Shown: in pieces, positions 6,064 to 21,242 of the stretch
Layout: each line of letters begins with the position of its first letter
Position numbering within the stretch: the first letter of the stretch is position 1
Assembly: GCA_963845175.1 (NCBI GenBank)
Contig: CAWJRI010000012.1
Location: 13,928-77,927, forward strand
Source of the DNA: an uncultured archaeon
Lineage (GTDB): Archaea > Nanobdellota > Nanobdellia > Woesearchaeales > CAIVOO01
Direction: 5' to 3'
Length of the DNA: 64,000 bases
Position numbers and translations under genes: made by a program
The notes under the pieces: generated by a model
Told to the model about the DNA's origin: nothing
Database searches by the model: none
Seen by the model: the letters and a program-made list of their open reading frames with translations, nothing else

Positions 6064-6297
6064 TTATGTTATCTCGAGCGTAACTTTTCCAGTTGCTGAA
6101 GCAACTGTGTTTTCTCCCTGTTGTTGATCCCCATTTATAACCCCGATTGACACTTGGGCTGTGCCTTCAGGGTTTGTTCCTTTTACCACTATACCCTTAT
6201 CTAGCATCTTCCATGTAGCAATCGCAGAAAGAACAATAGCAATTACCAAAAGAATCGCCACTGTTTTTTTAGAGATATCGTCACTCATGTTTTGCAC
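6064..6297 (-). CDS. 77-aa protein with the same conserved N-terminal hydrophobic segment as the 199-aa protein, plus a short beta-rich tail
   Basis: ORF track. SD-like GAGGTG upstream. DDISKKTVAILLVIAIVLSAIA aligns with ADISNKTLAILVGIAIVVSVVG of the next gene. Confidence 0.6.
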   Translation of the reverse strand: MQNMSDDISKKTVAILLVIAIVLSAIATWKMLDKGIVVKGTNPEGTAQVSIGVINGDQQQGENTVASATGKVTLEIT

Positions 6298-6390
6298 CTC
6301 TGATTTTTTACTATTTTATAATTTAAAAAAATTATAGATATATATAAATTTTTTGGTTTTTTAGTATATAGTTCTAAAATTTTGCGAAAA

Positions 6391-6587
6391 GTATATAAAA
6401 TACTTACATTGTAAGTACAAATAAAAAGATTTATATATTCTATACTTACATTGTAAGTAAAACATAAATTTTTATATATAAAATACTTACATTGTAAGTA
6501 AAGAAACACAGAATTTTTATATAAGTACCTACATTGTAAGTACAAATAAAAAGATTTATATATTCTATACTTACATTGTAAGTAAAA
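6391..6587. promoter_or_regulatory. Array of five TATA-box-like elements, each followed by a 17-bp palindrome TAC[TC]TACA-T-TGTAAGTA (candidate operator)
   Basis: Palindromes at 6401-6417, 6443-6459, 6484-6500, 6526-6542 (one mismatch) and 6568-6584. Centre-to-centre spacing is 42, 41, 42 and 42 bp. Each is preceded within 2-5 nt by (T)TTATATA. The last palindrome ends 3 nt before the first HTH reading frame. Confidence 0.6.
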
Positions 6588-6767
6588 TTGATACCTACTG
6601 AGATTTTCAAAGACCGTACATTAAGTGTTCTCGAAGCTATTGTTGAATATCTCAAGGAGCAGAATGGGCTTTCTTATCACAAAATTGCTGAGATGCTAAA
6701 CAGAAATGACAGGACAGTCTGGACATGCTATCATCGCGCAAAGCAGAAAAGGAAAGTGACAGAATGA
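6588..6767 (+). CDS. Mini HTH protein, copy 1 (59 aa if initiated at TTG 6588); possibly leaderless or untranslated
   Basis: Encodes (L/M)IPTEIFKDRTLSVLEAIVEYLKEQNGLSYHKIAEMLNRNDRTVWTCYHRAKQKRKVTE. There is no ATG and no SD. Its stop overlaps the ATG of copy 2 (ATGA). Confidence 0.4.
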   Translation: MIPTEIFKDRTLSVLEAIVEYLKEQNGLSYHKIAEMLNRNDRTVWTCYHRAKQKRKVTE

Positions 6768-6924
6768 TACCTACTGAGATTTTCAAAGACCGTACATTAA
6801 GTGTTCTCGAAGCTATTGTTGAATATCTCAAGGAGCAGAATGGGCTTTCTTATCACAAAATTGCTGAGATGCTAAACAGAAATGACAGGACAGTCTGGAC
6901 ATGCTATCATCGCGCAAAGCAGAA
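6591..6924 (+). repeat. Perfect 158-bp direct repeat (6591-6748 = 6767-6924), period 176 bp, duplicating the mini-HTH gene
   Basis: Read directly from the sequence. I found no mismatches across the 158 bp. Confidence 0.9.
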
Positions 6925-6943
6925 GAGAAAGAAAAATGAATGA
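6764..6943 (+). CDS. Mini HTH DNA-binding protein, copy 2 (59 aa), sigma-70 region 4 / LuxR / Tfx-N-like helix-turn-helix
   Basis: MIPTEIF...LSYHKIAEMLNRNDRTVWTCYHRAKQKRKKNE fits the pattern LS..EIAE.L.....TV.....RA..K typical of sigma70_r4/LuxR-type HTH. An ATG with a purine-rich stretch upstream is present. The track ORF start at 6725 is an out-of-frame read-through of copy 1. Confidence 0.65.
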   Translation: MIPTEIFKDRTLSVLEAIVEYLKEQNGLSYHKIAEMLNRNDRTVWTCYHRAKQKRKKNE

Positions 6944-9900
6944 AGACAAATTAAGCGAGCTGGAGAAGAGGTTTGAGGAGTGCAAGCTCTCGCTTACTGA
7001 ATATGATATCTTAAAAGAGAAGCTAATCAAGAAATATGACTTGGCTGAGCCAGCCAAACCTCCAAGAATAGAAAAGAAGAAGCCAAGAAAGCTGGCGATT
7101 GGAATAGCTGTTTTGGTTGTCTTGATTGGATTATTCTTCTTGGTAAAGGCGCCTTCATTTACCGGCTTGTTTATGCAGAATGTAAGCAACGAGACAAATG
7201 CCAGTATTAATATAAGTGTGGTTTTGAATGAAAGTCAGATAAATGAAACTTTGAATGTTTCAATTAAGAACATTGGTTTAGAGAATATAACTGAAAATCT
7301 AACTTCAAATAATTCAATCAAGAATATTAGTTTAGAAAACAAAATTAAAAAAATCATTCCAAAAACTGCGTTGGACAAATTAAATGACAAATTCAATGGT
7401 ATCAATTTTGAAAAGGATAAAAACTACTTAAAAATAAAACACAAAAAAGCAGAAATAAGGCTAAAGGGCGCGAATGAGTCAGAGATAAAAGAAGTCCAGG
7501 TTGCAAGCGAAGATGAGATTAAGATAAAAAATAAAAAAGCTTCTTTCGGAACGCCTGTTGTCGCGATAAACTCAATAAACATAACAAATGCCACAATTAT
7601 TCTGGACAAGGAAGGGCCTGTCAATAGGATTGTCTACTGCCCTGACTGGAATTTTACTGGAGAAAGCTGCTCTGCGTGGGTTGAAACAAACATTCCATTC
7701 ACGGATTTGGGCGACAAGATAAGCTTTACAGTGACCCACTTCACAGCTTATGCAGGAAGCTTTGTGACAAATGTTGCTTCTGAATGGGATGCGGGATTGT
7801 TCACAAACACTGAGAAACTTGGCAATGTGACAATTCTTTCTGGAGCGAACACAACAGGAACATATTTGAGCTACGTCTACAGAAATGGGACAACAGCAAA
7901 CGACGCAGTTATTGTGGACTGGACGAAACTTGCGTGGGTGGATGATTACAACGGAACAACACATTATCAGGAAGCGCCGGTAAGAAGTGGAATGGTCGGC
8001 TACTGGAAACTGAACAACAACACGCTGGACAGTAGCACAAAGCACAACAATATGACAAGCTACGAGGCAACACCAACGACAGAGTGCGTTTTCGGAACAG
8101 GGAACTGCGCTTATGATTTTGGTGGAACAAGCAGTTATATGACTGCATTGAACAGTGCCGACTTTGATTTTGGCACAGGAGATTTTACAGTAGAGGTATG
8201 GGTTTATCCAACAGGAGATCCTTCTTCAATGGAGGAAATAATAAACAAGGCAGACTCAACTTCTTATGCACCTTTCAGGATTTTAAGAGTGCCAACAGGA
8301 GGCGGACTAAATTATTTAATGTCGAACACCGCGGGAAGTTGGGTAACATACGGAGGCGTATGGTACGGAGACAGCGCATACGCACCGCTAAACAAGTGGA
8401 CACACATCGTGCTGACAAGAAATTCGGGTACAGCACACTTCTACGTGAACGGAGTGCAGGTTTCGAGTATGTCAGCAAACTACCAAGTCTATAATGACGC
8501 AAGCGAAGTCGCAATAGGCAGACTCCTGCATTACGGAACACCCTACTGGTTCCAGGGCAAAATAGACAATGTAATTATTTACAAAGACAAGGGACTAACG
8601 CAAGACGAAGTAAAAGAGGAATATGCAAGAGGCGCGAAAGAGCTGAACATAACTCTGGCGTACAGAACAACTAATCTGACGCAGGAAGTTTACAACACAA
8701 GCGGGCTGCTTGGCTGGTGGAAGCTGGACGAGAACGCGACAGACTTCTCAGGAAACGGCAACAACGGGAACATTGTCGGAGCAGCAAAAATAGGCGGATA
8801 TTTCAACAACAGCTACATGTTTGACCTTGCGTACCTCAAATACATAGACGTGGGAACAGGGCTGAACGCGCAAACTGTGATGACTCTCGAAGCCTGGGTA
8901 AACCCTCACAGTGGATATTCACATATAGGGGGCATAATATCAAAGTATCAACAGGGAGCAAGCCCAGCAGGAAGCTATTACATGGACATAGATGACGCAC
9001 TGCATCCCAACTATGCATTCTACGGGCTGTCTCCTTCATGCGCAGGGTCAGTAACAAGTTACACATTCCCGACAGATAAATGGACTTACTATGCAATTAC
9101 GTACGACGGAAGCAAGGTAATAACATACATCAACGGAAACGATATAGATGAAAGAGCCTGCTCCGGAACAATAACACAGTCGTCAGCAACAGTATGGATA
9201 GGAAACCTAAACCAGCCTGCATATTATTATAACTACTATGGCAAAATCGACAGCGCGAGAGTTTACAACAGAAGCCTTTCAGCAGAGGAAATAAAATACA
9301 ACTACTGGCATGCAAACTTTACAGGCAGAAACTTCGGAGCTTACAAGGCAGAAAGCCCAGCAACAATAAACCAAAACGCAAAATACTTCCAGTACAAGGC
9401 AAAACTAGTCAGCAACGCAAGTGGGTACACTCCATTCCTAGAAAAAACTGAAGCAAATTTCTCATTTACATCTGGTAACACTGCTCCGACGCAGGGAACT
9501 CCTAAATTAAATTCAACTCACAGAACAAACAAGTCAAATGAAAATCTGACTGTCTATAACACTTCAACCTACGATGCTGATGGTGATCATGTTACAAACA
9601 TAATCAACTGGTACAGAAACGGAAATTCAATAACTGCGCTGAACATGCCTTTCAATTCCAACAATTCAGCTGGAGCTGGAAAGACAAAAGATTATTCTGG
9701 AAATGGAAATAATGGAACTATTAATGGAGCGACGTGGAGTGCAACATCTGGATTTGACGGAAAAGGAGCATACAGCTTTGACGGAACAAACGACTACATT
9801 ACAATTCCACATTCATCTTCAATAAATATTATCTCAGGCCAAGCAACTTATTCAATGTGGCTCAAAAGAGGCAGGTCTGGAGCTACTGAAGTATTGTTTG

Positions 9901-12900
9901 ACAAGAACTCTGTAACACCAGAGCCAGTTTATATCAGGTTCAGCAATAATGACCGCATTTATATTCAGATATTTGCCAACGATGGCTCTTATCATTATTT
10001 TTTTGCTTCAAGCACTTCTACGATTACTGATACGGACTGGCATTTATTAGATGTAGTCTTTGATTATGATACTTGGACAAATTCAAAAATTTACATTGAT
10101 GGGGTGGCGGAAACATTATACAGCCCAACTCAATTTGGAACGCAAATTGCATTAACAAACACAGGGATACTTACTATTGGCTCACCTAATTCTGGTGCAG
10201 ATTATAATTTCAACGGCAAAATAGACAATGTAAGAATCTACAACAGAGCTTTGTCAGCAGCGCAGATAAAAGCATTGTACAACAACAGAACAGATAGAAT
10301 TGTCTCGCAGGAATTAAATGCAGGAGAAATCTGGAAAGCGTCGATCACGCCGAATGATGGTTACGCTGACGGACTGACAAAGTTCTCGAACAACGTAACA
10401 ATACTCAGCTCAGCTAATACAGCACCTACACAAGGGACACCAATACTGAATTCAACGCACGGCACAAATAGGTCAAATGAAAATCTGACTGTCTATAACA
10501 CTTCAACCTACGATGCTGATGGTGATCATGTTACAAACATAATCAACTGGTACAGAAACGGAAATTCAATAACTGCGCTGAACATGCCTTTCAATTCCAA
10601 CAATTCAGCTGGAGCTGGAAAGACAAAAGATTATTCTGGAAATGGAAATAATGGAACTATTAATGGAGCGACGTGGAGTGCAACATCTGGATTTGACGGA
10701 AAAGGAGCATACAGCTTTGACGGAAGCAATGATATAACTGTAAGTGATTCATCATCTCTTAAATTAGGAAGAGGGTCATTCACAATAAGTTTATGGCTCA
10801 AAACTGGTTATCATGGATATCAATTAATTCTTGGAAAATATAATCCTACTTATCCATATGAAGATTATGAAATTAGTATGTTAGATGCTTCAACAATAAG
10901 AGGCTGTGCAATAGACTGTGGCACGAGTGCTTGTGGATTTGGTTCTACAAGGTTCTGTCTTCCAGTAACTTTCTCGATTGCAGATAATCAATGGCATTAT
11001 ATTACTTATACGCGAAGTGGTAGTTTAGAAACATTCTATATTGATGGCGTTTCTTTAGGAACACTTACTCAAGGACCATTGAATACGGATTCTACAGGAG
11101 TGCTTCATATCGGCAGTACATCTTTTAGCGGAAAAATAGACAACATAATCATTTACAATAGAAGTCTGACAGCGCAAGAAATCAAGGCATTGTACAACAA
11201 TAGGACAGATAGGATTGTTTCGCAGGAGTTAAATGCAGGAGATATTTGGAAAGCGGCAGTCACCCCCAATGACGGCTACACAGACGGACTCACAAAATTC
11301 TCAAACAACATAACAATACTCAGCGCAGCTAATACGGCACCTACACAGGGAACGCCTAAATTAAATTCAACCCACGGCACAAACAGATCAAATGAAAACC
11401 TGACTGTTTACAATGTTTCGACTTATGATGCAGAAGGTGATCCTGTCACAAACATAATCAACTGGTACAAAAACGGAAATTCAATTATGGCTCTGAACAT
11501 GCCGTTCAACTCAAACAATTCAGCCGGAGCTGGGAAGACAAAAGATTATTCTGGACATGGAAATAATGGAACTGTTAATGGCGCAACCTGGATTTCAAAT
11601 GGAGGGTTTGACGGAAAAGGAGCTTACAGCTTTGACGGAAGCGATTATGTAAGCTGTGGAAATAGAGCAAAAACTGTATTAAATGATAGGCTTACTCTTG
11701 AAGCTTGGATTAAGCCGACTGTAGGAGCAACCAGTCCGATAGTTGGGAAAGACTCCCAATCTCCTGGCTGGGAAAGCTATGCAATGTCACTTTCAACTGC
11801 TGGAGAAGTTGTAATGCAACTTACGAATGGTGCAACTTACTCTTATGTTAAATCAAGCGGGGTTGTATCTAACGGAGTATGGTCACATGTTGCAGTAACT
11901 TGGCAATATACAGGAGCAGGAGGAATGACTGATGTTTCAATTTACATAAATGGAGTTAAGCAAACAAATTTCCTTGTTGCTCAAACAGGAGAGCCATCTA
12001 CTTTATCAGCAGCAACAGGAGATTTAAGAATTGGAATGCTCGCAAACCAGGCATATTATTTCACAGGCAAAATAGACAATGTAAGAATCTATAACAGAAG
12101 CCTGTCAGCAGAACAGATAAAAGCATTGTACCAGAATAGGACAGATAGGATTGTTTCGCAGGAGTTAAATGCAGGAGATATTTGGAAAGCGGCAGTCACC
12201 CCCAATGATGGTTATTCAGATGGACTGACAAAGTTCTCAAATAATGTGACAATACGCGCCCCAGCTGTAGCTAACACAGCATCTACACAAGGGACACCAA
12301 TACTGAATTCAACGCACGGCACAAATAGGTCAAATGAAAACCTGACTGTTTACAATGTTTCGACTTATGATGCAGAAGGTGATCCTGTTACAAACATAAT
12401 CAACTGGTACAGGAATGGAACTTCGATTGCTGTGCTAAATATGCCGTTCAACTCAAACAATTCAGCTGGAGCTGGAAAGACAAAGGATTACTCAGGCTTA
12501 GGAAATAATGGAACTGTTAATGGAGCAAAATGGATTCCAAATGGAGGGTTTGACGGAAAAGGTACATACAGCTTCGACGGAAGCGGAACTTACATAGATT
12601 TAGGAACAGGATTAAATGTACAAACCGAAATGACATTTGAAGCGTGGGTGATGCCACATTATCCATTTCCACAAATAGGAGCAATACTATCAAAGTTTAA
12701 TCAATACGGAAGTCCACCAGGAAGCTACTATTTTACAATAGATGGGAATTTACACCCGAATTACTATATTTATGGACCAGCTTGTTCGGGACAGGTAAAT
12801 AGTTATACATTCCCGACAGAACAATGGACGCACTACGCTGTAACGTATAATGGAAGTAAAGCAATAACATATATTAACGGACAGAAAGTAGATGAAATAA

Positions 12901-15900
12901 GCTGTTCGGGTGCGATACAGCATTCAGCGTCAAGCGTATGGATAGGGAATTTAAATCAGCCAGCATATTATTACAAATATTTCGGAAAAATAGACAGCGT
13001 AAGATTATACAATACATCTTTGTCAGCGGCGCAGATAAAAGCATTGTACCAGAATAGGACAGATAGGATTGTTTCGCAGGAGTTAAATGCAGGAGATATT
13101 TGGAAAGCGGCAGTCACCCCCAATGATGGTTATTCAGATGGACTGACAAAGTTCTCAAATAATGTGACAATACGCGCCCCAGCTGTAGCTAACACAGCAC
13201 CTACACAAGGGACACCAATACTGAATTCAACGCACGGCACAAATAGGTCAAATGAAAACCTGACTGTTTACAATGTTTCGACTTATGATGCAGAAGGTGA
13301 TCCTGTTACAAACATAATCAACTGGTACAGGAATGGAACTTCGATTGCTGTGCTAAATATGCCGTTCAACTCAAACAATTCAGCTGGAGCTGGAAAGACA
13401 AAGGATTACTCAGGCTTAGGAAATAATGGAACTGTTAATGGAGCAACCTGGAATGCAACAGCTGGATTCGATGGGAAAGGCGCCTACAGCTTTAATGGTA
13501 ATACTAATAATTACATATCCTGGACTTATACAAAACCTCAAAACAGCTTTACTATGGTGGCATGGGTCAAAGCAACTACAACGCACGAAATTGATTCTTT
13601 ATCGGATCCTCTTGGTGGAGTAAGCGGTGAAAAATATGTATTCTGGCCAAATCATGAAGCTAATAGTAGTGCTGGTGCTGGACTTTCTGTCGGAACAAAT
13701 GGTATAACTGTATACGAACATGGAGATTGGTACCTGCCTGCAGTTGCCGAATATATTGGTAACTTGTCAACACATTGGCACCACATTGCCATAGTTTACG
13801 CCAACAAGCAACCTAAAATTTATTTAGATGGCGCTTTAGTAAGTACTGGCGGAATATCCACGAGGACGATAGTTTATGCTCCAACCCAAATGGGTTCAGG
13901 TTCTTATGGTGGTTTCCCAGGTTTAATAGAAGATGTCCGTATCTACAACAGTTCATTATCAGCAGTAGAAATAAAAGCATTGTACAACAACAGGACAGAC
14001 AGGATTGTCTCGCAGGAATTAAATGTAGGAGATATTTGGAAAGCGTCAATCACGCCGAACGACGGCTACAGCGACGGGCTGACAAAGTTCTCAAACAATA
14101 TAACAATCAAAGCTAACATACCGCCGACACAGGGAACGCCGATATTGAACTCAAGCAAGAGGTTGAACAGATCAAATGAAAACCTGACTGTCTACAATGT
14201 CTCAACCTATGATGCTGACAGCGATCCTGTTACAAACATAATCAACTGGTACAGAAACGGAAATTCAATCATGGTTCTGAACATGCCGTTCAATTCGAAC
14301 AATTCAGCCGGAGCTGGGAAGACAAAAGATTATTCTGGACATGGAAATAATGGAACTGTTAGTGGAGCAACCTGGATTTCAGATGGAGGGTTTGACGGGA
14401 AAGGCGCATACAGATTCAATGATAGTAAGTCAGATTTCATCAATCTTGGAACAGGCAGTTCATTAACAATTGCAGATAAAATCACTTTAGAAGCATGGAT
14501 CTACCTTCCGGACTTAACAGGATATCATCCAATTATCTCAAAACAAGGATACAGTGTGTTAAGATACAATTACGCGTTTGGAACAAGTGGTGCAAATATT
14601 TACTTGTGGCTTGATGCAGAGGGTGGGGGGACAGCCGGAGAGATTATAACAACAGACAATCCTATCACAACAACAGGCTGGCATCACATAGTTGCCTCAT
14701 ATGATGGAAGTTACGAAGCCATTTATCTGGATGGTGTGGACGTAAAGCATCAAGTAGTATCTATAACGCTGGCAAATTCAGGCACACATGCCTGCTACAT
14801 AGGAAGAGAGGATTACAATACTGGAATCTCGGGGCTTTTCAACGGAAAGATAGATTCAGCAAGAATTTATCATCGAGCTTTGACTGCGCAGCAGATAAAA
14901 GCGTTGTACAACAACAGGACAGACAAGATTGTTTCGCAGGAATTAAGTGCTGGAGATGTTTGGAAAGCATCAATCACGCCGAATGACGGATACAGCGACG
15001 GGCTGACAAAGTTCTCAAACAATGTAACAATACTAAGTTCAGCAGCAGCAAATACACCGCCAACACAGGGAACGCCGATACTAAATTCTACTCACAGAAC
15101 AAATAAGTCGAATGAGAATCTGACTGTCTACAATGTCTCAACCTATGATGCTGACAGCGATCCTGTTACAAACATAATCAACTGGTACAGAAACGGAAAT
15201 TCAATCATGGTTCTGAACATGCCGTTCAATTCGAACAATTCAGCCGGAGCTGGGAAGACAAAAGATTATTCTGGACATGGAAATAATGGAACTGTCGATG
15301 GAGCGACGTGGAGTGCAACAGCTGGATTTGACGGGAAGGGTGCATACATGTTTAGCAGCAGTTATATTGAAAGAGCCTACGACCCTGACTTTACTCCAGG
15401 AACCAAAAGCTGGACAGTTGCGGCATGGATAAAAGTTCCGCTTACTGAGGGTCCACCGTCGTTCATTGCAGACTGGTATAGATGCGGCGCTAATCCTTCA
15501 TGCGGTAGTCCTGATTCTGCATTATACAGTCTAAGCATAATTAATAACAACAAAGTAAATTGGCATGTAAGAGATGATAATAGTAATGATGTATCACTAA
15601 CAAGTTCTTCAGCTGTTGCAGATAATAATTGGCATTATATAGTTGGAACTTTTGACCCAACAAATGACTTAACAAAGTTATATATAGATGGAGCTGAAGT
15701 TGCGACAAATAATACACCCTTAACTTCTCTTTCAGACGGCGGTGTGTCAATACCATTAGAAATTGGACGACGTTTTGTAACAGGATGGGGTTCACCAAGT
15801 GGTTATTTGTACGGCAAAATAGACGATGTAAGAATCTATAGCAGAGCGCTGACAGCTGCGCAGATAAAAGCGTTGTACAACAACAGAACAGATAGGATTG

Positions 15901-18900
15901 ATTCGCAGGAATTAAAAGTTGGAGAGACTTGGAATGCGAGCGTTACGCCGAACGACGGCTACGCAGATGGGTTGACAGAATTCAGCAATTCGGTCACTAT
16001 TAAGTCGTCAACCCCTCCAAACATAACGAAGGTACAGCTGCATGACAAAAACAAAAAGCCGATAACAAACAAGACGCTCGTAAAAGCAGGGGAAAATATA
16101 ACAATAAATGTGACTGTGGCGCAGACAGAGGGAACAGTGAGCAGCGTCTGGATAAAAGTATGGAAAACTGTTGCAAACGCATTTACAACAATCTTTGAAG
16201 GAGTCCTAAATTTAATTTCTGGCAATCTGTGGCAGATAACAATAACAACAAATGGAAGCTGGACGCATGGCACGAATTACACCATCTACGCGAATGACAC
16301 AACTAATATAATAACGTCAAGAAATGAGAAAGTGTTTGTCAATAATCTGCCAACACAGGGTGTGCCGGCATTAAGTTCTCTCCTTAGAAGAAATGGAACA
16401 AATGAAAACCTAACTGTTTACAATACATCTACATATGACAGAGACAAAGATCCTGTTACAAACATAATCAACTGGTACAGGAATGGAACTTCGATTGCTA
16501 TGCTGAACATGCCGTTCAATTCGAACAATTCAGCCGGAGCTGGGAAGACAAAAGATTATTCTGGACATGGAAATAATGGAACTGTCGATGGAGCGACGTG
16601 GAGTGCAACAGCTGGATTTGACGGGAAGGGTGCATACAGCTTCACTGGAACAAATGGAGAATACATAGATGCAGGAAACGTGCCAGGAATAAATGGAGCA
16701 TCTGCATTGTCAGTTGAAGCCTGGGTTTATGTTAATGCATTTTCAGGCGATAATGGAATTGTTGCGAAAAGAGTTGCAGGCGTTGGAGAGGGCTTTCAGC
16801 TTATAAGTTATGATAGTGGAGGCAATCATTTCCATTGGTATCCAGAAACAACCGGAACAAATAATGTTGCTTCTTCAGTTAAAAATAAAGTTATCAATAC
16901 TTGGTATCATGTCGTTGGAACTTATGATGGTTCTTACGCAAGGATTTATGTTAATGGCGTTCTTGAGGATACACAAGTGGTTACGGGAACAATAATATCT
17001 TCAGCAGCGTCAATATGGATAGGAAATTATTATAGCACAGACCACCCTTTTGACGGCAAAATAGACAGCATAAGAATATACAATAGAGCGCTAAGTCCGG
17101 CGCAGATAAAGGCATTATACAACAACAGAACAGATTTAATTGTCGCTGAAGAAACAAAAAGCAAGGAAACATGGAAGGCGTGCATAACGCCGAACGACGG
17201 CTACGGAGACGGACCAACAAACTGCTCAAACAATCTCACAATAAATACAGCTCCAACGGTTGTACTGGCAGGCCCTGCCAATAACTCTGTTTGGAATATC
17301 CCGCCAACCTTCAGCTGGACTTATTCTGACAGCGACAATGATGTCCAGCAAGAATACCATATTATTATGGACAATGATAGTGACTTCTCCTCGCCGGAGA
17401 TAAATAGCACGGTAGTGAGCAGCAACAATTACACGCAGATAATGCCAAACAATCCAGGCAGTTATTACTGGAAAGTTCAGGTTTACGACGGCAAGGAATG
17501 GAGCAACTTCTCTGGCACAAGAAAGTTCACAACTACATGCCTAAGCCCATACAATGATATGTACATTAATTCAAACACAAAGCTGTGCAGCGGAACTTTC
17601 CATATTAATGACAGCTACCCTGATGGCGTCTTGATTTTAAATGCATCAGACATAATCTTAGACTGCAACAATGCAACTTTAATTGGAAATGGAGCGAACT
17701 ATGGGATTTATGTCAATCAAAAAAACAATATTACAATCAAGAACTGCATATTGAAAAATTATAATTATGGGATCTATTCTTGGTATTCGAACAATTCCAA
17801 AATAATAAATAATAAATTTTCCAACAGCACAATATATTTGTCTTCTTCACATTATTTCAACATAATAAGCAATTATATAAGCGCAAGTGGAAAACTCATA
17901 GACCTTGAGGGTTCTCGTCATACAAATATTTTCAACAATAAGATAAGCAAGAACCTATCTATTGATTTGTTTACCGGAAGTGGCAGCGGTGGACAGATTT
18001 ATGCATATCATTCACCCTACACTTATGCGCTAAATAACACATTCAAATATTCTGGAGGCATAAGGTTTTCCTGGAGCGACAACAGCAGCGCAGTCAACAA
18101 TACAGTTACTGATTTTAGCACAGCTTTTGCTGGCTTGATTGGCGTAGATGGTTCTAATGGGATTCTTTTCGAAGGAAACAATATAACAAACACAATGGGG
18201 CTGCTTGGTGCATTATATGCAGATGGTTCAAAAAATGTAATAATTAAAAGAAACAAAGTAGAGAACAACTTGCTCATGATGCTAACAATTACAAACTGCA
18301 ATAATATAACCGTCAGAGACAATAATCTAATGTCGAACAAAGACGCATGGTACATAAAGAACATATCTGCTATTTACGAAGAAATTACAAACCAGACTTT
18401 CCCGACATCCCTTGGAATTGACGGTTCGTCGTCATTCTTAATGACTTTGTTACAGCAGCTTTTCAGCCATGTTGAATCTGGCGCATTTAATATAAGTGGA
18501 GGAAATATAACGGGCGTTAATCTGGATGCTATGTCTTTATTGAAAATTCTCGGTCCGGTTTATTCGACAAATGTCAACAATATGACCTTAGTTAGCAACA
18601 ATCTAACCTTTGACAGCTTTAAAATTATGGCGAATCTGAGAGCTAACAAAGTTGATGTTAAGCGCGATGATGTTTCATTTGGAGCAGCTGTCGCGTACAT
18701 CGAAGGAAGTGATAATATTATCGAAAATAACTCTTTCATATTCAACAATAGCGGAGTTTCAATACACAGCTATGGAAATGTCACAGACATAGAAAACAAC
18801 AGATTAAACATAATTCTGGGTTCCTTCGCCCTGCAGGGAAATTCGAACAGAGTCTACCATAACAAGATGGCAATTGAAAAAAGCGGCATTGACCTGAATT

Positions 18901-21242
18901 CGCATACAAATACAACAATTGAAAATTCAACAGCTGTTAACGGCAAAGTATTCAGTATGAATATTTTAGGAAATAATAATGTTGCAAGCAATAATGATGT
19001 GCTTATCAAGGATTTGAATATAAATATAACTACCCATGGAAATAATGTTGACTTAAAAAAACTGTCAATCAATAATCTAACCATTGCGTTAGTTATTGTC
19101 GGAGGCTCGAACAACACCATCGAATCAAATAATGCAAAATATCATAATGCAAAATTATGGATCAGATCAGACGCAACAGATTATACAAAAATACATGACA
19201 CTGTTTTTGACTATAATTTTGTCTCATCCATTGGGCTAATGAATGCCAATAAAACCACAGTAAAAAACAATGTATTGACAATGGAAAATGCCGGCTTCGG
19301 CCTTGATATTATTCATGATGCATTTTATTCGACAAATATCACAAGGCTAATTTTCGGAGGAGTCGGCCTTATTAGCTCAAACAACAACACCATAGTCAAC
19401 AATTCGTTCATAGGCAACTCGCCTACTGCAAGCATCTCATTAACTCCCGCAAACGCAAAAAACAACACAATCAGCATAATTTATACGCTTCTGCTTGCAA
19501 TGCATAACTCCACTAATAATTATTTCGCAAACAACACAATTGTAAACAACACAATAAGTGAATCATTGGCTTCGCTGTTCAGCCCTTCGCTAGGGAACAA
19601 ACTAAGCATCCAGAAGCCAGGTATTTTGATTGACTCAGACAACAACAAAATATTTTCAAACAAAGTTTACAACAGCGGAAACTTTGATGCCTGGATAAAT
19701 GGAACAAACAACTCGTTCAGGCTTAACAGCTTTCTTTCAAATGGCATCGGCGGAAAGAAAAGCTTCTACGGTTCATACTCGCCGATGCACTACAATGGAG
19801 AGTATTTCAACGATACATATGGTTTTGTCGTCATAGGATCCGGCATTCAGGTTGTAACAGTAGACAACACATTAATAACACCAGCAAATGGCACCAACAA
19901 TTATGATCTTATGCTGTTCAACGACACAGTGGGTGCACTTGGAAATGGAACTGGAAAAATGTCAACCGCATTCTGTATAGGATGTTATGCTGGCGGCATA
20001 ATCAATTGCAGCGCTTTAGATGCTGCGCTTAGCTCTCCAGGTGCCTGCCGCTATTACAAACACAATGCGCTTGTAGGCCAGGGCGCTGGACAGGATTATT
20101 TGTTCAATGACATCTTCAACTCCACTTATTATGTGATACATAGCTACACTTCGCCACCTTCGATAAATTTGAAGGACTTCAGCAATAATTACTGCGTCGC
20201 TGGCGAAGGAAACTTCTATGAAGAATCGATACCTATGTCTAGAATCGGCTCGAATGACTGCGGTCTCAGCAATTTGACAAGCCCAACCGCAGGGAACTAC
20301 AACGACGGAACAGTAAAAATAAACTGGACAAGGCAGAGCGCCATGAGCACTGTAACCTATGACATCTTGCTTAACAGAACATGGACAGGAGTTGAAACGC
20401 TCCTTGCAAGAACTGTGGGGCTTAACTACCTCTGGAATACCACTGGCTACGAACCAGGCATTTACAGCATAAGGCTTGTTCCATGGATAGTCGGAAGCAG
20501 GCATAACGCGACAAATGCAAAAAGTGAAGAATTTGACCTAAACGGCACGATTCCTGCGACACCTTTGTTAATTTCGCCGGCAAACGATTCAACTCTGATC
20601 GACAGGACACCGACGATGAACTGGACAACTGTAGCAGGCAGCGGAATCACGTATCAGCTGCTGGTTGATAATGACACATCATTCGCTTCACCCGAAATAA
20701 ACGTCACAATCTCTGACACAAATTACACGCCGCTGACTGACATGAAGTTTGGAACGCACAACTGGAAAGTAAGGGCTTACAGAGGGGTTTTATATAGCAG
20801 TTTCAGCACGCAGAGGAATTTCACAATAATCACAAGCATCAGCTGCTCGCTGCCTGTGGCTGCTATTAATTTTGGAAATATAGATAAGGATGCAATTAAG
20901 AATACACAGAGCGAGAATCCTGCACCAATGATTGTCCGGAACAACGGAAACCTGAAACTCAACATTTCAATCAATTCAACTGACTTGTGGAAGTCACAAC
21001 CGAATCCGTCATCCTACTACCAGTTCAGGATCGACAAGAATGAAAGCAATGCATGGGATTCTGCGCTTAATGATTCATGGCACAATCTAGTCAAGACAAC
21101 TCCGCTGGTGGCAATCAGCGGACTGAAATACCATAGCGAAAGCAATTCAGCGGAAATCGAGCTTCAGATAACAGGACCGCCTGATGAAGGTGCAGGATCA
21201 AAGAAATCACAATTAAATGTGTGGTGCAGCCAAGATGAATAA
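6936..21242 (+). CDS. Giant (4,768 aa) N-terminally anchored surface protein: SHOCT-like cytoplasmic head, one TM, a sequon-rich stalk, ~10 LamG (concanavalin-A-like lectin) modules, Ig/FN3-like domains, a right-handed parallel beta-helix (PbH1) region and a C-terminal beta-sandwich
   Basis: A single uninterrupted ORF. Start taken at ATG 6936 (MNEDKLSELEKRFEE), because the first 18 aa of the track ORF are the HTH gene in another frame. TM is LAIGIAVLVVLIGLFFLV. LamG hallmarks (WTH.A.TY.G....YI[ND]G, GKIDNVRIYNR.LS..[EQ]IKALY) recur 10 times. Beta-helix repeats (N.TIKNC.L.N...GIY...S.NN.I.NN) span about 17540-19760. N-x-S/T sequons are abundant throughout. Confidence 0.9.
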   Translation: MNEDKLSELEKRFEECKLSLTEYDILKEKLIKKYDLAEPAKPPRIEKKKPRKLAIGIAVLVVLIGLFFLVKAPSFTGLFMQNVSNETNASINISVVLNESQINETLNVSIKNIGLENITENLTSNNSIKNISLENKIKKIIPKTALDKLNDKFNGINFEKDKNYLKIKHKKAEIRLKGANESEIKEVQVASEDEIKIKNKKASFGTPVVAINSINITNATIILDKEGPVNRIVYCPDWNFTGESCSAWVETNIPFTDLGDKISFTVTHFTAYAGSFVTNVASEWDAGLFTNTEKLGNVTILSGANTTGTYLSYVYRNGTTANDAVIVDWTKLAWVDDYNGTTHYQEAPVRSGMVGYWKLNNNTLDSSTKHNNMTSYEATPTTECVFGTGNCAYDFGGTSSYMTALNSADFDFGTGDFTVEVWVYPTGDPSSMEEIINKADSTSYAPFRILRVPTGGGLNYLMSNTAGSWVTYGGVWYGDSAYAPLNKWTHIVLTRNSGTAHFYVNGVQVSSMSANYQVYNDASEVAIGRLLHYGTPYWFQGKIDNVIIYKDKGLTQDEVKEEYARGAKELNITLAYRTTNLTQEVYNTSGLLGWWKLDENATDFSGNGNNGNIVGAAKIGGYFNNSYMFDLAYLKYIDVGTGLNAQTVMTLEAWVNPHSGYSHIGGIISKYQQGASPAGSYYMDIDDALHPNYAFYGLSPSCAGSVTSYTFPTDKWTYYAITYDGSKVITYINGNDIDERACSGTITQSSATVWIGNLNQPAYYYNYYGKIDSARVYNRSLSAEEIKYNYWHANFTGRNFGAYKAESPATINQNAKYFQYKAKLVSNASGYTPFLEKTEANFSFTSGNTAPTQGTPKLNSTHRTNKSNENLTVYNTSTYDADGDHVTNIINWYRNGNSITALNMPFNSNNSAGAGKTKDYSGNGNNGTINGATWSATSGFDGKGAYSFDGTNDYITIPHSSSINIISGQATYSMWLKRGRSGATEVLFDKNSVTPEPVYIRFSNNDRIYIQIFANDGSYHYFFASSTSTITDTDWHLLDVVFDYDTWTNSKIYIDGVAETLYSPTQFGTQIALTNTGILTIGSPNSGADYNFNGKIDNVRIYNRALSAAQIKALYNNRTDRIVSQELNAGEIWKASITPNDGYADGLTKFSNNVTILSSANTAPTQGTPILNSTHGTNRSNENLTVYNTSTYDADGDHVTNIINWYRNGNSITALNMPFNSNNSAGAGKTKDYSGNGNNGTINGATWSATSGFDGKGAYSFDGSNDITVSDSSSLKLGRGSFTISLWLKTGYHGYQLILGKYNPTYPYEDYEISMLDASTIRGCAIDCGTSACGFGSTRFCLPVTFSIADNQWHYITYTRSGSLETFYIDGVSLGTLTQGPLNTDSTGVLHIGSTSFSGKIDNIIIYNRSLTAQEIKALYNNRTDRIVSQELNAGDIWKAAVTPNDGYTDGLTKFSNNITILSAANTAPTQGTPKLNSTHGTNRSNENLTVYNVSTYDAEGDPVTNIINWYKNGNSIMALNMPFNSNNSAGAGKTKDYSGHGNNGTVNGATWISNGGFDGKGAYSFDGSDYVSCGNRAKTVLNDRLTLEAWIKPTVGATSPIVGKDSQSPGWESYAMSLSTAGEVVMQLTNGATYSYVKSSGVVSNGVWSHVAVTWQYTGAGGMTDVSIYINGVKQTNFLVAQTGEPSTLSAATGDLRIGMLANQAYYFTGKIDNVRIYNRSLSAEQIKALYQNRTDRIVSQELNAGDIWKAAVTPNDGYSDGLTKFSNNVTIRAPAVANTASTQGTPILNSTHGTNRSNENLTVYNVSTYDAEGDPVTNIINWYRNGTSIAVLNMPFNSNNSAGAGKTKDYSGLGNNGTVNGAKWIPNGGFDGKGTYSFDGSGTYIDLGTGLNVQTEMTFEAWVMPHYPFPQIGAILSKFNQYGSPPGSYYFTIDGNLHPNYYIYGPACSGQVNSYTFPTEQWTHYAVTYNGSKAITYINGQKVDEISCSGAIQHSASSVWIGNLNQPAYYYKYFGKIDSVRLYNTSLSAAQIKALYQNRTDRIVSQELNAGDIWKAAVTPNDGYSDGLTKFSNNVTIRAPAVANTAPTQGTPILNSTHGTNRSNENLTVYNVSTYDAEGDPVTNIINWYRNGTSIAVLNMPFNSNNSAGAGKTKDYSGLGNNGTVNGATWNATAGFDGKGAYSFNGNTNNYISWTYTKPQNSFTMVAWVKATTTHEIDSLSDPLGGVSGEKYVFWPNHEANSSAGAGLSVGTNGITVYEHGDWYLPAVAEYIGNLSTHWHHIAIVYANKQPKIYLDGALVSTGGISTRTIVYAPTQMGSGSYGGFPGLIEDVRIYNSSLSAVEIKALYNNRTDRIVSQELNVGDIWKASITPNDGYSDGLTKFSNNITIKANIPPTQGTPILNSSKRLNRSNENLTVYNVSTYDADSDPVTNIINWYRNGNSIMVLNMPFNSNNSAGAGKTKDYSGHGNNGTVSGATWISDGGFDGKGAYRFNDSKSDFINLGTGSSLTIADKITLEAWIYLPDLTGYHPIISKQGYSVLRYNYAFGTSGANIYLWLDAEGGGTAGEIITTDNPITTTGWHHIVASYDGSYEAIYLDGVDVKHQVVSITLANSGTHACYIGREDYNTGISGLFNGKIDSARIYHRALTAQQIKALYNNRTDKIVSQELSAGDVWKASITPNDGYSDGLTKFSNNVTILSSAAANTPPTQGTPILNSTHRTNKSNENLTVYNVSTYDADSDPVTNIINWYRNGNSIMVLNMPFNSNNSAGAGKTKDYSGHGNNGTVDGATWSATAGFDGKGAYMFSSSYIERAYDPDFTPGTKSWTVAAWIKVPLTEGPPSFIADWYRCGANPSCGSPDSALYSLSIINNNKVNWHVRDDNSNDVSLTSSSAVADNNWHYIVGTFDPTNDLTKLYIDGAEVATNNTPLTSLSDGGVSIPLEIGRRFVTGWGSPSGYLYGKIDDVRIYSRALTAAQIKALYNNRTDRIDSQELKVGETWNASVTPNDGYADGLTEFSNSVTIKSSTPPNITKVQLHDKNKKPITNKTLVKAGENITINVTVAQTEGTVSSVWIKVWKTVANAFTTIFEGVLNLISGNLWQITITTNGSWTHGTNYTIYANDTTNIITSRNEKVFVNNLPTQGVPALSSLLRRNGTNENLTVYNTSTYDRDKDPVTNIINWYRNGTSIAMLNMPFNSNNSAGAGKTKDYSGHGNNGTVDGATWSATAGFDGKGAYSFTGTNGEYIDAGNVPGINGASALSVEAWVYVNAFSGDNGIVAKRVAGVGEGFQLISYDSGGNHFHWYPETTGTNNVASSVKNKVINTWYHVVGTYDGSYARIYVNGVLEDTQVVTGTIISSAASIWIGNYYSTDHPFDGKIDSIRIYNRALSPAQIKALYNNRTDLIVAEETKSKETWKACITPNDGYGDGPTNCSNNLTINTAPTVVLAGPANNSVWNIPPTFSWTYSDSDNDVQQEYHIIMDNDSDFSSPEINSTVVSSNNYTQIMPNNPGSYYWKVQVYDGKEWSNFSGTRKFTTTCLSPYNDMYINSNTKLCSGTFHINDSYPDGVLILNASDIILDCNNATLIGNGANYGIYVNQKNNITIKNCILKNYNYGIYSWYSNNSKIINNKFSNSTIYLSSSHYFNIISNYISASGKLIDLEGSRHTNIFNNKISKNLSIDLFTGSGSGGQIYAYHSPYTYALNNTFKYSGGIRFSWSDNSSAVNNTVTDFSTAFAGLIGVDGSNGILFEGNNITNTMGLLGALYADGSKNVIIKRNKVENNLLMMLTITNCNNITVRDNNLMSNKDAWYIKNISAIYEEITNQTFPTSLGIDGSSSFLMTLLQQLFSHVESGAFNISGGNITGVNLDAMSLLKILGPVYSTNVNNMTLVSNNLTFDSFKIMANLRANKVDVKRDDVSFGAAVAYIEGSDNIIENNSFIFNNSGVSIHSYGNVTDIENNRLNIILGSFALQGNSNRVYHNKMAIEKSGIDLNSHTNTTIENSTAVNGKVFSMNILGNNNVASNNDVLIKDLNINITTHGNNVDLKKLSINNLTIALVIVGGSNNTIESNNAKYHNAKLWIRSDATDYTKIHDTVFDYNFVSSIGLMNANKTTVKNNVLTMENAGFGLDIIHDAFYSTNITRLIFGGVGLISSNNNTIVNNSFIGNSPTASISLTPANAKNNTISIIYTLLLAMHNSTNNYFANNTIVNNTISESLASLFSPSLGNKLSIQKPGILIDSDNNKIFSNKVYNSGNFDAWINGTNNSFRLNSFLSNGIGGKKSFYGSYSPMHYNGEYFNDTYGFVVIGSGIQVVTVDNTLITPANGTNNYDLMLFNDTVGALGNGTGKMSTAFCIGCYAGGIINCSALDAALSSPGACRYYKHNALVGQGAGQDYLFNDIFNSTYYVIHSYTSPPSINLKDFSNNYCVAGEGNFYEESIPMSRIGSNDCGLSNLTSPTAGNYNDGTVKINWTRQSAMSTVTYDILLNRTWTGVETLLARTVGLNYLWNTTGYEPGIYSIRLVPWIVGSRHNATNAKSEEFDLNGTIPATPLLISPANDSTLIDRTPTMNWTTVAGSGITYQLLVDNDTSFASPEINVTISDTNYTPLTDMKFGTHNWKVRAYRGVLYSSFSTQRNFTIITSISCSLPVAAINFGNIDKDAIKNTQSENPAPMIVRNNGNLKLNISINSTDLWKSQPNPSSYYQFRIDKNESNAWDSALNDSWHNLVKTTPLVAISGLKYHSESNSAEIELQITGPPDEGAGSKKSQLNVWCSQDE
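9476..17240 (+). repeat. Eight tandem ~0.9-1.3 kb coding modules (small beta-sandwich split by a LamG domain) with 100%-identical nucleotide blocks in the linkers and divergent LamG cores
   Basis: Module starts (N[TI][AP]PTQGTP) are near 9476, 10413, 11328, 12270, 13190, 14113, 15050 and 16340. Identical blocks: 9533-9786 = 10472-10725; 12114-12528 = 13032-13446 (1 mismatch); 14184-14359 = 15120-15295; 15213-15348 = 16503-16638. Confidence 0.9.

What the first reader, a model, noticed from the sequence alone, without database searches (positions are those of the whole stretch)
6391..6943. Five phased TATA-plus-palindrome modules feeding a perfectly duplicated mini-HTH gene, at the divergent hub of the surface-protein island
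A 17-bp perfect inverted repeat, TACTTACA-T-TGTAAGTA, occurs five times between 6401 and 6584 (one copy has a single mismatch). Spacing is 41-42 bp, roughly four helical turns, so all copies sit on the same DNA face. Each copy lies 2-5 nt downstream of a TTTATATA-type archaeal TATA box. Units 1-2 are themselves re-duplicated as units 4-5 (125-bp offset). The last palindrome abuts a 59-aa sigma70-r4/LuxR/Tfx-like HTH reading frame, and that frame is duplicated with 158/158 identical nucleotides (176-bp period). Copy 1 has only a TTG start. Copy 2 has an ATG and overlaps the start of the 14.3-kb surface-protein gene by 8 nt. The minus-strand fibre and adhesin genes diverge from the same region. 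I infer an autoregulated, multi-operator switch, possibly variable in copy number (phase variation), that controls both arms of the island. Tandemly reiterated promoter-operator units of this kind are not a standard archaeal promoter layout.
Basis: partly seen in the sequence, partly recalled or inferred. Interest (0 to 1): 0.8.

Follow-up and report, generated by a model that had tools for sequence, protein, structure and literature searches.

The report
Repeated promoter-operator modules before mini-HTH genes
Five tandem copies of a promoter carrying a 17-bp palindrome sit upstream of a duplicated 59-residue DNA-binding protein gene and a giant surface-protein gene in a DPANN-type archaeon, and the same palindrome/regulator/membrane-protein unit recurs in dozens of related genomes, pointing to a large family of regulators that no searched database or paper names.

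Summary
The palindrome TACTTACATTGTAAGTA occurs five times (6401-6584), 41-42 bp apart. Each copy lies 1-5 nt downstream of a plus-oriented TATA box. Two tandem 59-aa HTH genes follow and overlap each other and a 4,768-aa LamG gene.

It is not an assembly artefact. Independent assemblies of relatives show 2, 3 or 5 modules and 1 or 2 HTH copies (possibly 3). The two copies are homogenised within each genome, which indicates gene conversion.

The 17-mer lies directly upstream of HTH homologues in 35 non-redundant Woesearchaeota/Nanoarchaeota loci. It has a polar TATA box on the gene-distal side (p=2e-13). Its 9-bp core occurs nowhere else in the window.

The protein models confidently as an ECF-sigma region-4 fold. 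Its family has about 2,000 clusters at 50% identity. Members often carry 2-5 tandem HTH repeats, and some are fused to the cytoplasmic tail of giant LamG proteins. I found no dedicated Pfam or NCBIfam model and no paper.

Best reading: an autorepressed promoter-operator array driving a regulator plus surface-protein operon. I found no evidence that it controls the divergent minus-strand genes. Strict helical phasing is not a family feature, and phase variation cannot be tested here. Binding and repression are inferred.

The parts
6384..6417 (+). Module 1: A-rich BRE-like tract and TATATAAA (6392-6399), then the 17-bp palindrome (6401-6417)
   Evidence: TATA polarity across the family
6423..6459 (+). 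Module 2: AAAAAGA, TTTATATA (6430-6437), palindrome (6443-6459)
6466..6500 (+). Module 3: TTTATATA (6471-6478), palindrome (6484-6500). Together with modules 4-5 it forms the P-Y-P-X-P core shared with relatives L001 and L116
6510..6542 (+). Module 4: TTTATATA (6516-6523), palindrome with one mismatch (TACCTACATTGTAAGTA, 6526-6542). Near-copy of module 1
6548..6584 (+). Module 5: TTTATATA (6555-6562), palindrome (6568-6584). The TATA starts 33 nt before the TTG start codon, which matches the geometry of leaderless promoters elsewhere in this window
6588..6767 (+). HTH gene copy 1 (59 aa, TTG start, C-terminus KVTE). Sigma region-4-like helix-turn-helix
   Evidence: the TTG start is conserved in L001, L002, L116 and L117
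6764..6943 (+). HTH gene copy 2 (59 aa, ATG start created by the duplication junction, C-terminus KKNE). Overlaps the copy-1 stop (ATGA) and the giant gene start (8 nt)
6936..21242 (+). 4,768-aa surface protein. Cytoplasmic charged N-terminus (about 50 aa), one TM segment, then 10 Laminin_G_3 domains plus a beta-helix. Apparently translationally coupled to the HTH
6341..6349 (-). Separate TATA box of the divergent minus-strand operon. The first gene is 6064-6288, with Shine-Dalgarno GAGGTG. No palindrome lies in this core promoter

Best explanation
The region holds the control region and regulator genes of a surface-protein operon in a DPANN (Woesearchaeota/Nanoarchaeota-type) archaeon.

Each of the five roughly 42-bp units is a complete archaeal promoter of the leaderless type: an A-rich BRE-like tract plus a TATA box. 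A 17-bp palindromic operator fills the space between the TATA box and the predicted start site, at about -18 to -2. The operator is the conserved target of the sigma-region-4-like 59-aa HTH protein encoded immediately downstream. That gene is present as two tandem copies kept identical by gene conversion.

The HTH genes overlap each other and the giant LamG surface-protein gene, so all three are probably co-transcribed and translationally coupled. HTH dimers bound to the operators would let TBP/TFB bind but block RNA polymerase recruitment at every module, and could also obstruct read-through from upstream modules. That would give negative feedback on regulator and surface protein together. 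Several modules would raise output when derepressed and sharpen the response.

Shown:
- the sequence anatomy;
- the conserved motif/HTH/membrane-protein linkage;
- TATA polarity;
- the fold;
- copy-number variation among relatives and concerted evolution.

Inferred:
- DNA binding by this protein;
- the direction of regulation (repression);
- that all five modules actually fire.
For: 1. Motif/HTH linkage, tested in both directions. Homologues at 63-93% identity were fetched by protein alone and carry 2-7 copies of CTTACAWTGTAAG directly upstream. The core occurs nowhere else in those loci. A genome scan for the motif pair returned about 47 DPANN loci, 33 with an HTH homologue directly downstream, always on the side the array faces.
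2. Consensus over 114 sites in 35 non-redundant loci is TACTTACAWTGTAAGTA. The sequence itself is conserved rather than co-varying, as expected for a protein site and not an RNA stem.
3. Polarity. A 7/8 or better TTTAWAWA match lies in the 16 nt upstream of 65 of 116 sites. The mirrored downstream side has 12 of 116 (29 versus 0 for perfect matches; Wilcoxon p=2e-13).
4. First-in-operon genes of this window have their TATA 8-mer starting 27-33 nt before the ATG, which is the signature of leaderless transcripts. Module 5 sits 33 nt before the TTG. In L012 and L114 the last motif abuts the start codon.
5. By established knowledge of archaeal repressors (MDR1, LrpA, Phr; recalled, not re-read here), sites between the TATA box and the start site repress by blocking polymerase recruitment.
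6. Fold. The AlphaFold2 model has pLDDT 94, and the top Foldseek PDB hits are all ECF sigma region 4 with TM 0.72-0.80. Pfam Sigma70_r4_2 scores 26.4 bits against a cut-off of 25.7.
7. In 31 of 35 loci the HTH stop overlaps the start of a membrane or secreted protein gene.
8. The tandem state is genuine. Eleven substitutions separate the window and L001 lineages, and each is shared by both copies within a genome. The junction and tail sequences remain orthologous between genomes.
Against: - There is no experimental or transcript evidence; binding, repression and start sites are all inferred.
- About 14 DPANN arrays have no adjacent HTH. They lie upstream of LamG and LTD proteins but also RFC-like and Trm5 genes. 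The site could therefore belong to a wider regulon or to a different factor.
- L003 has the HTH but no motif within 12 kb.
- Only 56% of sites across the family have a strong TATA box, so not every module need be a promoter.
- A TTG start on a leaderless mRNA should be translated poorly, from my knowledge of haloarchaeal leaderless translation.
- Foldseek E-values are weak (0.017 or higher), as expected for a 55-residue domain.
Confidence: 0.6

Rival explanations
1. Membrane-coupled signalling pair. The sigma-4-like HTH is controlled by, or tethered to, the cytoplasmic part of the co-encoded single-pass surface protein. This would resemble an ECF sigma/anti-sigma pair or a ToxR-type membrane-bound regulator, so that the state of the giant surface protein (for example host contact) feeds back on transcription at the palindromes.
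For: - In 31 of 35 loci the HTH is translationally coupled to an N-in single-pass membrane protein with a charged, helical cytoplasmic N-terminus.
- At least 15 of the top 150 family representatives, plus three fetched loci, are LamG proteins whose C-terminal anchor (WTIRxI..., hydrophobic stretch, RRRK) is followed by 2-4 HTH repeats in the same polypeptide.
- The structural hits are the domain that anti-sigma factors bind.
- There is a weak DUF4179 hit, E=0.033, on residues 47-114 of the giant protein; I recall DUF4179 as an anti-sigma-associated domain.
Against: - The partner proteins have no detectable anti-sigma domain, and their N-termini are not homologous across loci.
- Several partners have plain signal peptides with no cytoplasmic tail (L004, L012, L014, L063).
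- Some fusions could be read-through or frameshift calls at poly-A (KKKKKK) tracts.
- This reading extends the autoregulation model rather than excluding it.
Confidence: 0.2
2. The HTH is an activator or a concentration-dependent dual regulator like Ss-LrpB. The upstream palindromes would recruit or stabilise the pre-initiation complex at the proximal promoter and would not be independent promoters.
For: - Multi-site cooperative autoregulation with dual outcome is documented for Ss-LrpB (PMC2995911).
- 44% of sites across the family lack a strong TATA box.
- Relative to module 5, modules 1-4 lie upstream of its BRE/TATA.
Against: - In this window every palindrome has its own consensus TATA box at the same 1-5 nt distance.
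- The proximal site lies between the TATA box and the start codon. That is a repressor position in characterised archaeal systems, where activator sites abut the BRE from upstream (PMC2995911).
Confidence: 0.15
3. The palindrome is bound by some other, possibly global, factor of these archaea. The HTH gene would simply be one of its frequent targets.
For: - Arrays without an adjacent HTH lie upstream of unrelated genes.
- Three MAGs have one HTH-linked array and one HTH-less array (L030/L045, L051/L032, L062/L079).
Against: - That pattern is equally what a regulon of an autoregulated factor looks like.
- Fused A-B type HTH genes (L113, L114) lack the palindrome and instead carry arrays of different, non-palindromic repeats. 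The cis element therefore appears to change together with the HTH type, although on only two loci.
- The linkage holds across 63-100% protein identity.
Confidence: 0.1
4. Copy-number phase variation. Unequal recombination among the 42-bp and 176-bp repeats switches expression of the surface protein within a population.
For: - Relatives carry 2 (L117), 3 (L001, L002) or 5 (window, L116) modules, in different orders.
- They carry 1 (L116, L117) or 2 (window, L001) HTH copies. In L002 the second copy ends in the internal-junction type of sequence at the contig end, which hints at a third copy.
- Gene conversion shows that recombination between the copies is ongoing.
Against: - The differences are between populations that are 80-92% identical in DNA, not within one population.
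- The single copy in L116 and the possible third copy in L002 could be short-read assembly effects.
- No reads are available here.
Confidence: 0.1
5. The feature is an assembly artefact, or a different kind of element: replication origin or iterons, CRISPR-like array, transposon end, or structured RNA.
For: - Tandem identical repeats are prone to assembly error.
- The array folds strongly as RNA (z=-7.8).
- Gene orientation diverges at this point.
Against: - An orthologous duplication junction is present in independent JGI assemblies.
- There is no Rfam match. The strong fold is the trivial result of repeated palindromes, and the site sequence is conserved without covariation.
- The repeats are 17 nt with TATA-containing, mutually similar 'spacers', so this is not a CRISPR array. 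No cas, orc1/cdc6 or transposase gene was seen among the neighbours I examined.
- Two arrays per genome occur in three MAGs.
Confidence: 0.03

Closest known systems
   Same: A palindromic operator immediately downstream of the TATA box and covering the predicted start site; the regulator gene lies in the regulated operon; the expected mechanism is a block of RNA polymerase recruitment after TBP/TFB binding.
   Different: Different protein folds (DtxR, Lrp/AsnC, winged helix versus a sigma-4-like mini-HTH). Those systems have one promoter, whereas here whole promoter-operator units are repeated 2-8 times.
Ss-LrpB of Sulfolobus solfataricus (three cooperatively bound, regularly spaced palindromic boxes in its own control region; PMC2995911)
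   Same: Autoregulation through an array of regularly spaced palindromic sites, with cooperative, switch-like behaviour proposed.
   Different: Ss-LrpB is an Lrp-family protein with a RAM domain, and its boxes lie upstream of a single promoter. Here each site sits inside its own promoter, the protein is a 59-aa sigma-4-like domain, and helical phasing is not conserved.
Region 4 of bacterial ECF sigma factors with their anti-sigma partners (SigE/RseA, SigR, SigH, SigD/RsdA, SigW/RsiW)
   Same: Best fold match and the only Pfam model passed (PF08281). The gene is followed by, and coupled to, a single-pass N-in membrane protein gene, as for sigma/anti-sigma pairs. The locus lies behind its own recognition sites.
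   Different: There is no sigma region 2, so it is not a sigma factor, and archaea use TBP/TFB. It recognises a palindrome, which implies a dimer or tandem domains, rather than a -35 element. The partner has no detectable anti-sigma domain.
Membrane-bound one-component regulators (ToxR/CadC type); recalled, not tested
   Same: In the fused family members a DNA-binding domain and an extracytoplasmic domain are joined through a single membrane anchor.
   Different: Opposite polarity: the DNA-binding repeats are C-terminal. The domain type differs (OmpR-type winged helix in ToxR), and there are 2-4 tandem HTH repeats. In this window the HTH is a separate protein.
Bacterial TetR-family operators with the same palindrome (PmeR/TtgR-like)
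   Same: The 13-bp core CTTACANTGTAAG occurs as an operator pair in about 45 bacterial genomes. In the six acidobacterial and actinobacterial-type loci whose neighbouring ORF I extracted, it lies next to a TetR-like gene, confirmed by Pfam for one. TACTTACA and TGTAAGTA strings occur in the PmeR gene-switch paper (PMC4538802); their place in the PmeR operator was not read.
   Different: Unrelated protein family. The sites are embedded in a sigma-70 promoter (TTGAC, site, TATAAT, site), about 33-37 bp apart, with exactly two sites. This is a coincidence of sequence, not homology.

Membership tests
Sigma-70 family sigma factor (ECF type) | Region 4 HTH domain | tested here: met
   Pfam PF08281 scores 26.4 bits against a cut-off of 25.7. 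NCBIfam matches only the C-terminal region of ECF sigma models, all far below their cut-offs. The Foldseek top 30 are ECF sigma region 4 with TM 0.72-0.80.
Sigma-70 family sigma factor (ECF type) | Region 2 (core binding and -10 recognition) in the same protein | tested here: not met
   The protein is 59 aa and consists of region 4 alone. It is therefore not a sigma factor.
   Neither appears among Pfam hits at E<=0.01. The hits are Sigma70_r4_2, HTH_23, HTH_11, HTH_24 and Trans_coact.
Autoregulated archaeal repressor with an operator between the TATA box and the start site | Operator located between the TATA box and the transcription start of its own operon | tested here: inconclusive
   The geometry fits: the TATA box ends 1-5 nt before each palindrome, and the module-5 TATA starts 33 nt before the start codon, as for leaderless genes of this window. 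The start site is predicted, not mapped.
Autoregulated archaeal repressor with an operator between the TATA box and the start site | The protein binds the operator and lowers transcription | not testable with these tools
   Only comparative linkage is available.
Ss-LrpB-like cooperative multi-site autoregulation | Three or more regularly spaced palindromic sites in the regulator's own control region | tested here: met
   Five sites at 41-42 bp spacing. Homologous loci have 2-8 sites.
Ss-LrpB-like cooperative multi-site autoregulation | Lrp/AsnC fold, with sites aligned on one DNA face | tested here: not met
   The fold is sigma-4-like. Family spacings of 41-46, 54-57 and 63-64 bp show no preferred 10.5-bp period.
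ECF sigma/anti-sigma gene pair | Co-transcribed downstream single-pass membrane protein with a cytoplasmic N-terminus | tested here: met
   In 31 of 35 loci the next ORF overlaps the HTH stop. Most such ORFs have a charged N-terminus followed by one hydrophobic segment. Topology is inferred from sequence.
ECF sigma/anti-sigma gene pair | Recognisable anti-sigma domain in the partner | tested here: not met
   There are no Pfam hits above threshold. The only hint is DUF4179 at E=0.033, 15 bits against a cut-off of 30.
CRISPR array | Repeats of 23-47 nt separated by unrelated spacers, usually with cas genes | tested here: not met
   The repeats are 17 nt. The 24-25-nt intervals are mutually similar and contain TATA boxes. 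No cas-like domain was found in the genes examined.
Phase-variable (contingency) repeat locus | Copy-number heterogeneity within one population | not testable with these tools
   Only differences between related populations were seen: 2, 3 or 5 modules and 1 or 2 (possibly 3) HTH copies.

The most novel reading that the evidence does not exclude
The sigma-4-like HTH and the giant single-pass surface protein form an archaeal transmembrane signalling device. It would be analogous to, and independent of, bacterial ECF sigma/anti-sigma pairs or membrane-tethered transcription factors. The regulator would be held or released by the cytoplasmic part of the surface protein. In many relatives it is covalently fused to that part as 2-4 tandem HTH repeats. 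Contact of the DPANN cell's giant adhesin with a host would then be read out at arrays of promoter-operator modules.
Probability: 0.2. Interest if true: 0.85.

Novelty: new variant of a known kind. Interest (0 to 1): 0.68.

Why it matters
Almost nothing is known about gene regulation in DPANN archaea. Their giant LamG-type surface proteins are the leading candidates for host attachment.

This locus gives a concrete, testable regulator-operator pair. It comprises a 59-aa protein, a 17-bp site and a predicted repression geometry. The pair is conserved across dozens of genomes and belongs to a family of about 2,000 sequence clusters with no dedicated Pfam or NCBIfam model found.

It also shows three unusual evolutionary behaviours:
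- whole promoter-operator units multiplying in tandem;
- regulator genes kept identical by gene conversion, or fused into 2-5-domain chains;
- fusion of those chains to the cytoplasmic tails of giant surface proteins.

If the membrane coupling is functional, it would be a new route from the cell surface to transcription in archaea.

Tried and rejected
- Exact look-up of the database protein for copy 2 (P0001, 72 aa) found nothing on record.
- A profile search of PDB sequences gave no meaningful hit.
- Rfam found nothing. The strong RNA fold was discounted as the trivial result of repeated palindromes.
- Pfam found nothing for the downstream partner proteins. My impression of a SHOCT-like [IL][ST]xxEY motif in their cytoplasmic N-termini was not confirmed by any profile, so it remains only a reading of the sequences.
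- NCBIfam and Pfam gave no assignment for the minus-strand 'fibre/adhesin' genes.
- Rayleigh tests at periods of 9.5-12 bp gave similar R values (0.29-0.35). The same-face rule was therefore dropped as a family feature.
- The first metagenome scan, with a flank-plus-palindrome pattern, found nothing. The second, with an HTH gene pattern, found one contig.
- The roughly 45 bacterial hits of the motif scan were examined and set aside as TetR operators.
- Origin, iteron, CRISPR and transposon-end readings were considered and rejected on context (see rivals).
- Five literature searches and a string search for the motif found no description of this family or motif in archaea.
Full report
**1. Observation**

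- TACTTACATTGTAAGTA lies at 6401, 6443, 6484, 6526 (one mismatch) and 6568. Chance expectation is 0.17 per window.
- TRF reports a 42-bp period over 6392-6588 and a 176-bp period over 6589-6931.
- Units 1-2 and units 4-5 are 97% identical.
- The 9-bp core TACAWTGTA occurs nowhere else in the 64 kb.
- Each palindrome follows a TATA box by 1-5 nt and is preceded by an A-rich tract.
- The two HTH frames (6588-6767, TTG start; 6764-6943, ATG start) are identical over 160 nt and differ only in their last codons.
- The duplication junction AATGATACC supplies both the TGA stop of copy 1 and the ATG of copy 2.
- Copy 2 overlaps the ATG (6936) of a 4,768-aa protein with 10 Laminin_G_3 domains and a beta-helix.

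**2. Not an artefact; a dynamic locus**

Relatives were fetched through the protein or its DNA, from independent assemblies.

| Locus | Similarity to window | Modules | HTH copies |
|---|---|---|---|
| window | - | 5 | 2 |
| L001, L002 (two JGI samples) | about 80-91% DNA | 3 | 2 (L002 possibly 3) |
| L116 | 92.5% DNA | 5, in a different order | 1 |
| L117 | more distant (identity not computed) | 2 | 1 |

In every case the first or only HTH gene has the TTG start next to the last palindrome, and the homologous giant gene follows.

Eleven substitutions separate the window and L001 HTH genes. All eleven are shared by both copies within a genome. The copy-specific tails and the junction remain orthologous between genomes. 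So the duplication predates the split of these lineages, and gene conversion has homogenised the copies since.

The same pattern appears in the spacers. Both X-type spacers read caaataaAaag in the window and caaataaCaag in L116.

Two cases could be short-read assembly effects and need reads to settle: the single copy in L116, and the second copy in L002 that ends with the internal-junction sequence at the contig end.

**3. The palindrome and the HTH belong together**

The first line of evidence is unbiased with respect to the motif. Homologues at 63-77% identity came from different genomic contexts:
- L004-L011, next to MoxR/DUF58/BatA genes;
- L012, next to the same pilin-like cluster as the window;
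- L014;
- L016 and L017, next to glycosyltransferases.

Each carries 2-7 copies of the motif directly upstream and none elsewhere. The one exception is L003, where the HTH gene follows a 9,781-aa gene.

The second line runs in the other direction. I scanned 185,579 species genomes for two CTTACANTGTAAG sites 20-50 nt apart. My estimate of the chance expectation is below 1. The scan gave 95 loci. About 47 are Woesearchaeota or Nanoarchaeota. MAGs labelled 'uncultured Methanosarcinales' appear to be of the same kind; L033, for example, is the contig of L012. Of these, 33 have an HTH homologue directly downstream of the array, always in that orientation.

Over 35 non-redundant loci and 114 sites the consensus is the full 17-mer. 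Its sequence is conserved and does not co-vary.

**4. The units are polar promoter-operator modules**

- Within the 16 nt on the gene-distal side, 65 of 116 sites have a 7/8 or better match to TTTAWAWA. The mirrored side has 12 of 116. Perfect matches are 29 versus 0 (p=2e-13).
- In this window, first-in-operon genes have their TATA box starting 27-33 nt before the ATG. That is the signature of leaderless mRNAs. The module-5 TATA box starts 33 nt before the TTG.
- The palindrome therefore fills about -18 to -2 of an otherwise ordinary promoter. In characterised archaeal systems that position gives repression by blocking polymerase recruitment (established knowledge). Activator sites abut the BRE from upstream (PMC2995911).
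- Spacing across the family clusters broadly at 41-46 bp, with smaller groups at 54-57 and 63-64 bp. No 10.5-bp period is preferred. The 42 bp here is best read as the length of a duplicated unit and not as a phasing rule.

**5. The protein**

- The AlphaFold2 model has pLDDT 94 and four helices.
- Foldseek against the PDB returns ECF sigma region 4 domains at the top: SigR, SigH, SigE, SigD and SigW, with TM 0.72-0.80. E-values are weak, as expected for 55 residues.
- Pfam gives Sigma70_r4_2 just above its threshold.
- NCBIfam matches only the C-terminal part of ECF sigma models, far below their cut-offs.
- A profile search of PDB sequences finds nothing.
- The protein lacks region 2, so it is not a sigma factor.

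A profile search of 1.84 billion cluster representatives finds 2,186 members, 1,947 of them at E<=1e-10. Many have 2, 3, 4 or 5 tandem HTH repeats in one chain.

Nine of the motif-retrieved loci encode fused di-HTH proteins. Their two halves are 35-67% identical.

At least 15 of the top 150 representatives are LamG proteins of 779-5,919 aa. Their C-terminal anchor (WTIRxI, a hydrophobic stretch, then RRRK) is followed by 2-4 HTH repeats of two alternating subtypes. I fetched three such genes: L113, L114 and L115. Two of them lack the palindrome and have other, non-palindromic repeats arrayed upstream:
- L114 has CATAAATARTAAGT six times, with the last copy abutting the ATG.
- L113 has ATCATACATAWTACG three times.

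That fits hetero-domain HTH pairs reading asymmetric sites. It rests on only two loci.

**6. The partner gene**

In 31 of 35 loci the HTH stop overlaps the next start codon, mostly as ATGA. The next protein is a membrane or secreted protein. Usually it has a charged, helical cytoplasmic N-terminus, one TM segment, a TG[FYL] motif, and then a large ectodomain. None of these partners has a Pfam assignment at the N-terminus.

This conserved coupling, together with the fusions, motivates the signalling reading. I rate that at about 0.2.

**7. What is not supported**

- The divergent minus-strand operon has its own TATA box (about 6341-6349) and a Shine-Dalgarno sequence. The nearest palindrome is about 50 nt upstream of that TATA box, and all modules face the other way.
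- That gene cluster accompanies the HTH only in the window's close relatives and in L012.
- Its proteins have no family assignment.
- Control of 'both arms' is therefore not excluded, but nothing supports it.

**8. Wider regulon**

About 14 DPANN arrays have no adjacent HTH. They lie upstream of a LamG membrane protein (L084) and a lamin-tail-domain protein (L023). They also lie next to RFC-like (L024, L067) and Trm5 (L045) genes. Three MAGs have one array of each kind. This pattern fits an autoregulated factor with further targets. It also leaves room for a different binder, which I rate at 0.1.

**9. Novelty**

Five literature searches and a search for the motif string found no description of this family, motif or layout in archaea. 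The regulatory logic, an autoregulated HTH with an operator behind the TATA box, is of a known kind. Three things appear new:
- the stand-alone sigma-4-like family;
- the tandem multiplication of whole promoter-operator units;
- the tandem or fused HTH chains tied to giant surface proteins.

**Verdict**

This is a real feature and a new variant of a known kind. Interest is 0.68.

Noticed in passing
window 535-1221 (-) and 3049-3735 (-): Two 228-aa paralogues, 72% identical, flank the 562-aa gene. Each has an N-terminal TM segment followed by a TG[AG]AVV motif and an internal repeat (YRY[LV]M[KQE]W[DN]AS.Q.FMIYSPL appears twice). No family assignment.
   Followed up: partly
window 1338-3026 (-) and 5449-6048 (-): The C-terminal 157 aa of the 562-aa protein is 57% identical to most of the 199-aa pilin-like protein. 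A shared module links a small subunit and a large multi-repeat protein of the same minus-strand cluster.
   Followed up: partly
window-wide, e.g. upstream of 4187-5383(-), 27795, 44553-45116(-), 49631-50701(-), 50756, 53013-54293(-), 54368, 55632: Most first-in-operon genes have a TATA 8-mer starting 27-33 nt before the ATG and no Shine-Dalgarno sequence. This organism therefore seems to use mainly leaderless mRNAs. A few genes do have GAGGTG or GGAGGTG (6064-6288, 5449-6048, 39977-42241).
   Followed up: partly
L018-L112, about 45 bacterial loci (e.g. L019, L029, L036, L041, L044, L077): The same 13-bp palindrome CTTACANTGTAAG occurs as an exact pair 33-37 bp apart inside sigma-70 promoters (TTGAC, site, TATAAT, site). 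It is found in Acidobacteria, Alpha- and Gammaproteobacteria, Sericytochromatia and others. In the six loci whose neighbouring ORF I extracted, it lies next to a TetR-like regulator gene, confirmed by Pfam for one of them. This is an unrelated system with a coincident site.
   Followed up: yes
downstream partner proteins in L001, L016, L017, L020, L025, L027, L030, L038, L040, L071, L083, L087, L103 and window 6936->: A short motif T-G-[FYLAH] follows the first TM segment of many DPANN surface proteins (e.g. PSFTGLF, TITGYAV, GITGLVV, SITGFTGYV). It may be a processing or sorting signal. It also occurs in the window's 228-aa proteins.
   Followed up: no
L002 2025-2197: The second HTH copy ends with the junction-type tail (aagcgac) at the contig end instead of the terminal tail seen in L001. 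This suggests a third tandem copy in that population, or an assembler loop.
   Followed up: partly
L003 1-6264: Here the HTH gene overlaps the end of a 9,781-aa gene and precedes a 469-aa protein. By eye that protein resembles the window's 398-aa minus-strand protein; I did not test the similarity. The same components appear in a different order, with no palindrome within 12 kb.
   Followed up: no
window 6725-6943: Public annotation (P0001, 72 aa) starts copy 2 at an in-frame ATG inside copy 1. Homologue alignment places the true start at ATG 6764.
   Followed up: yes
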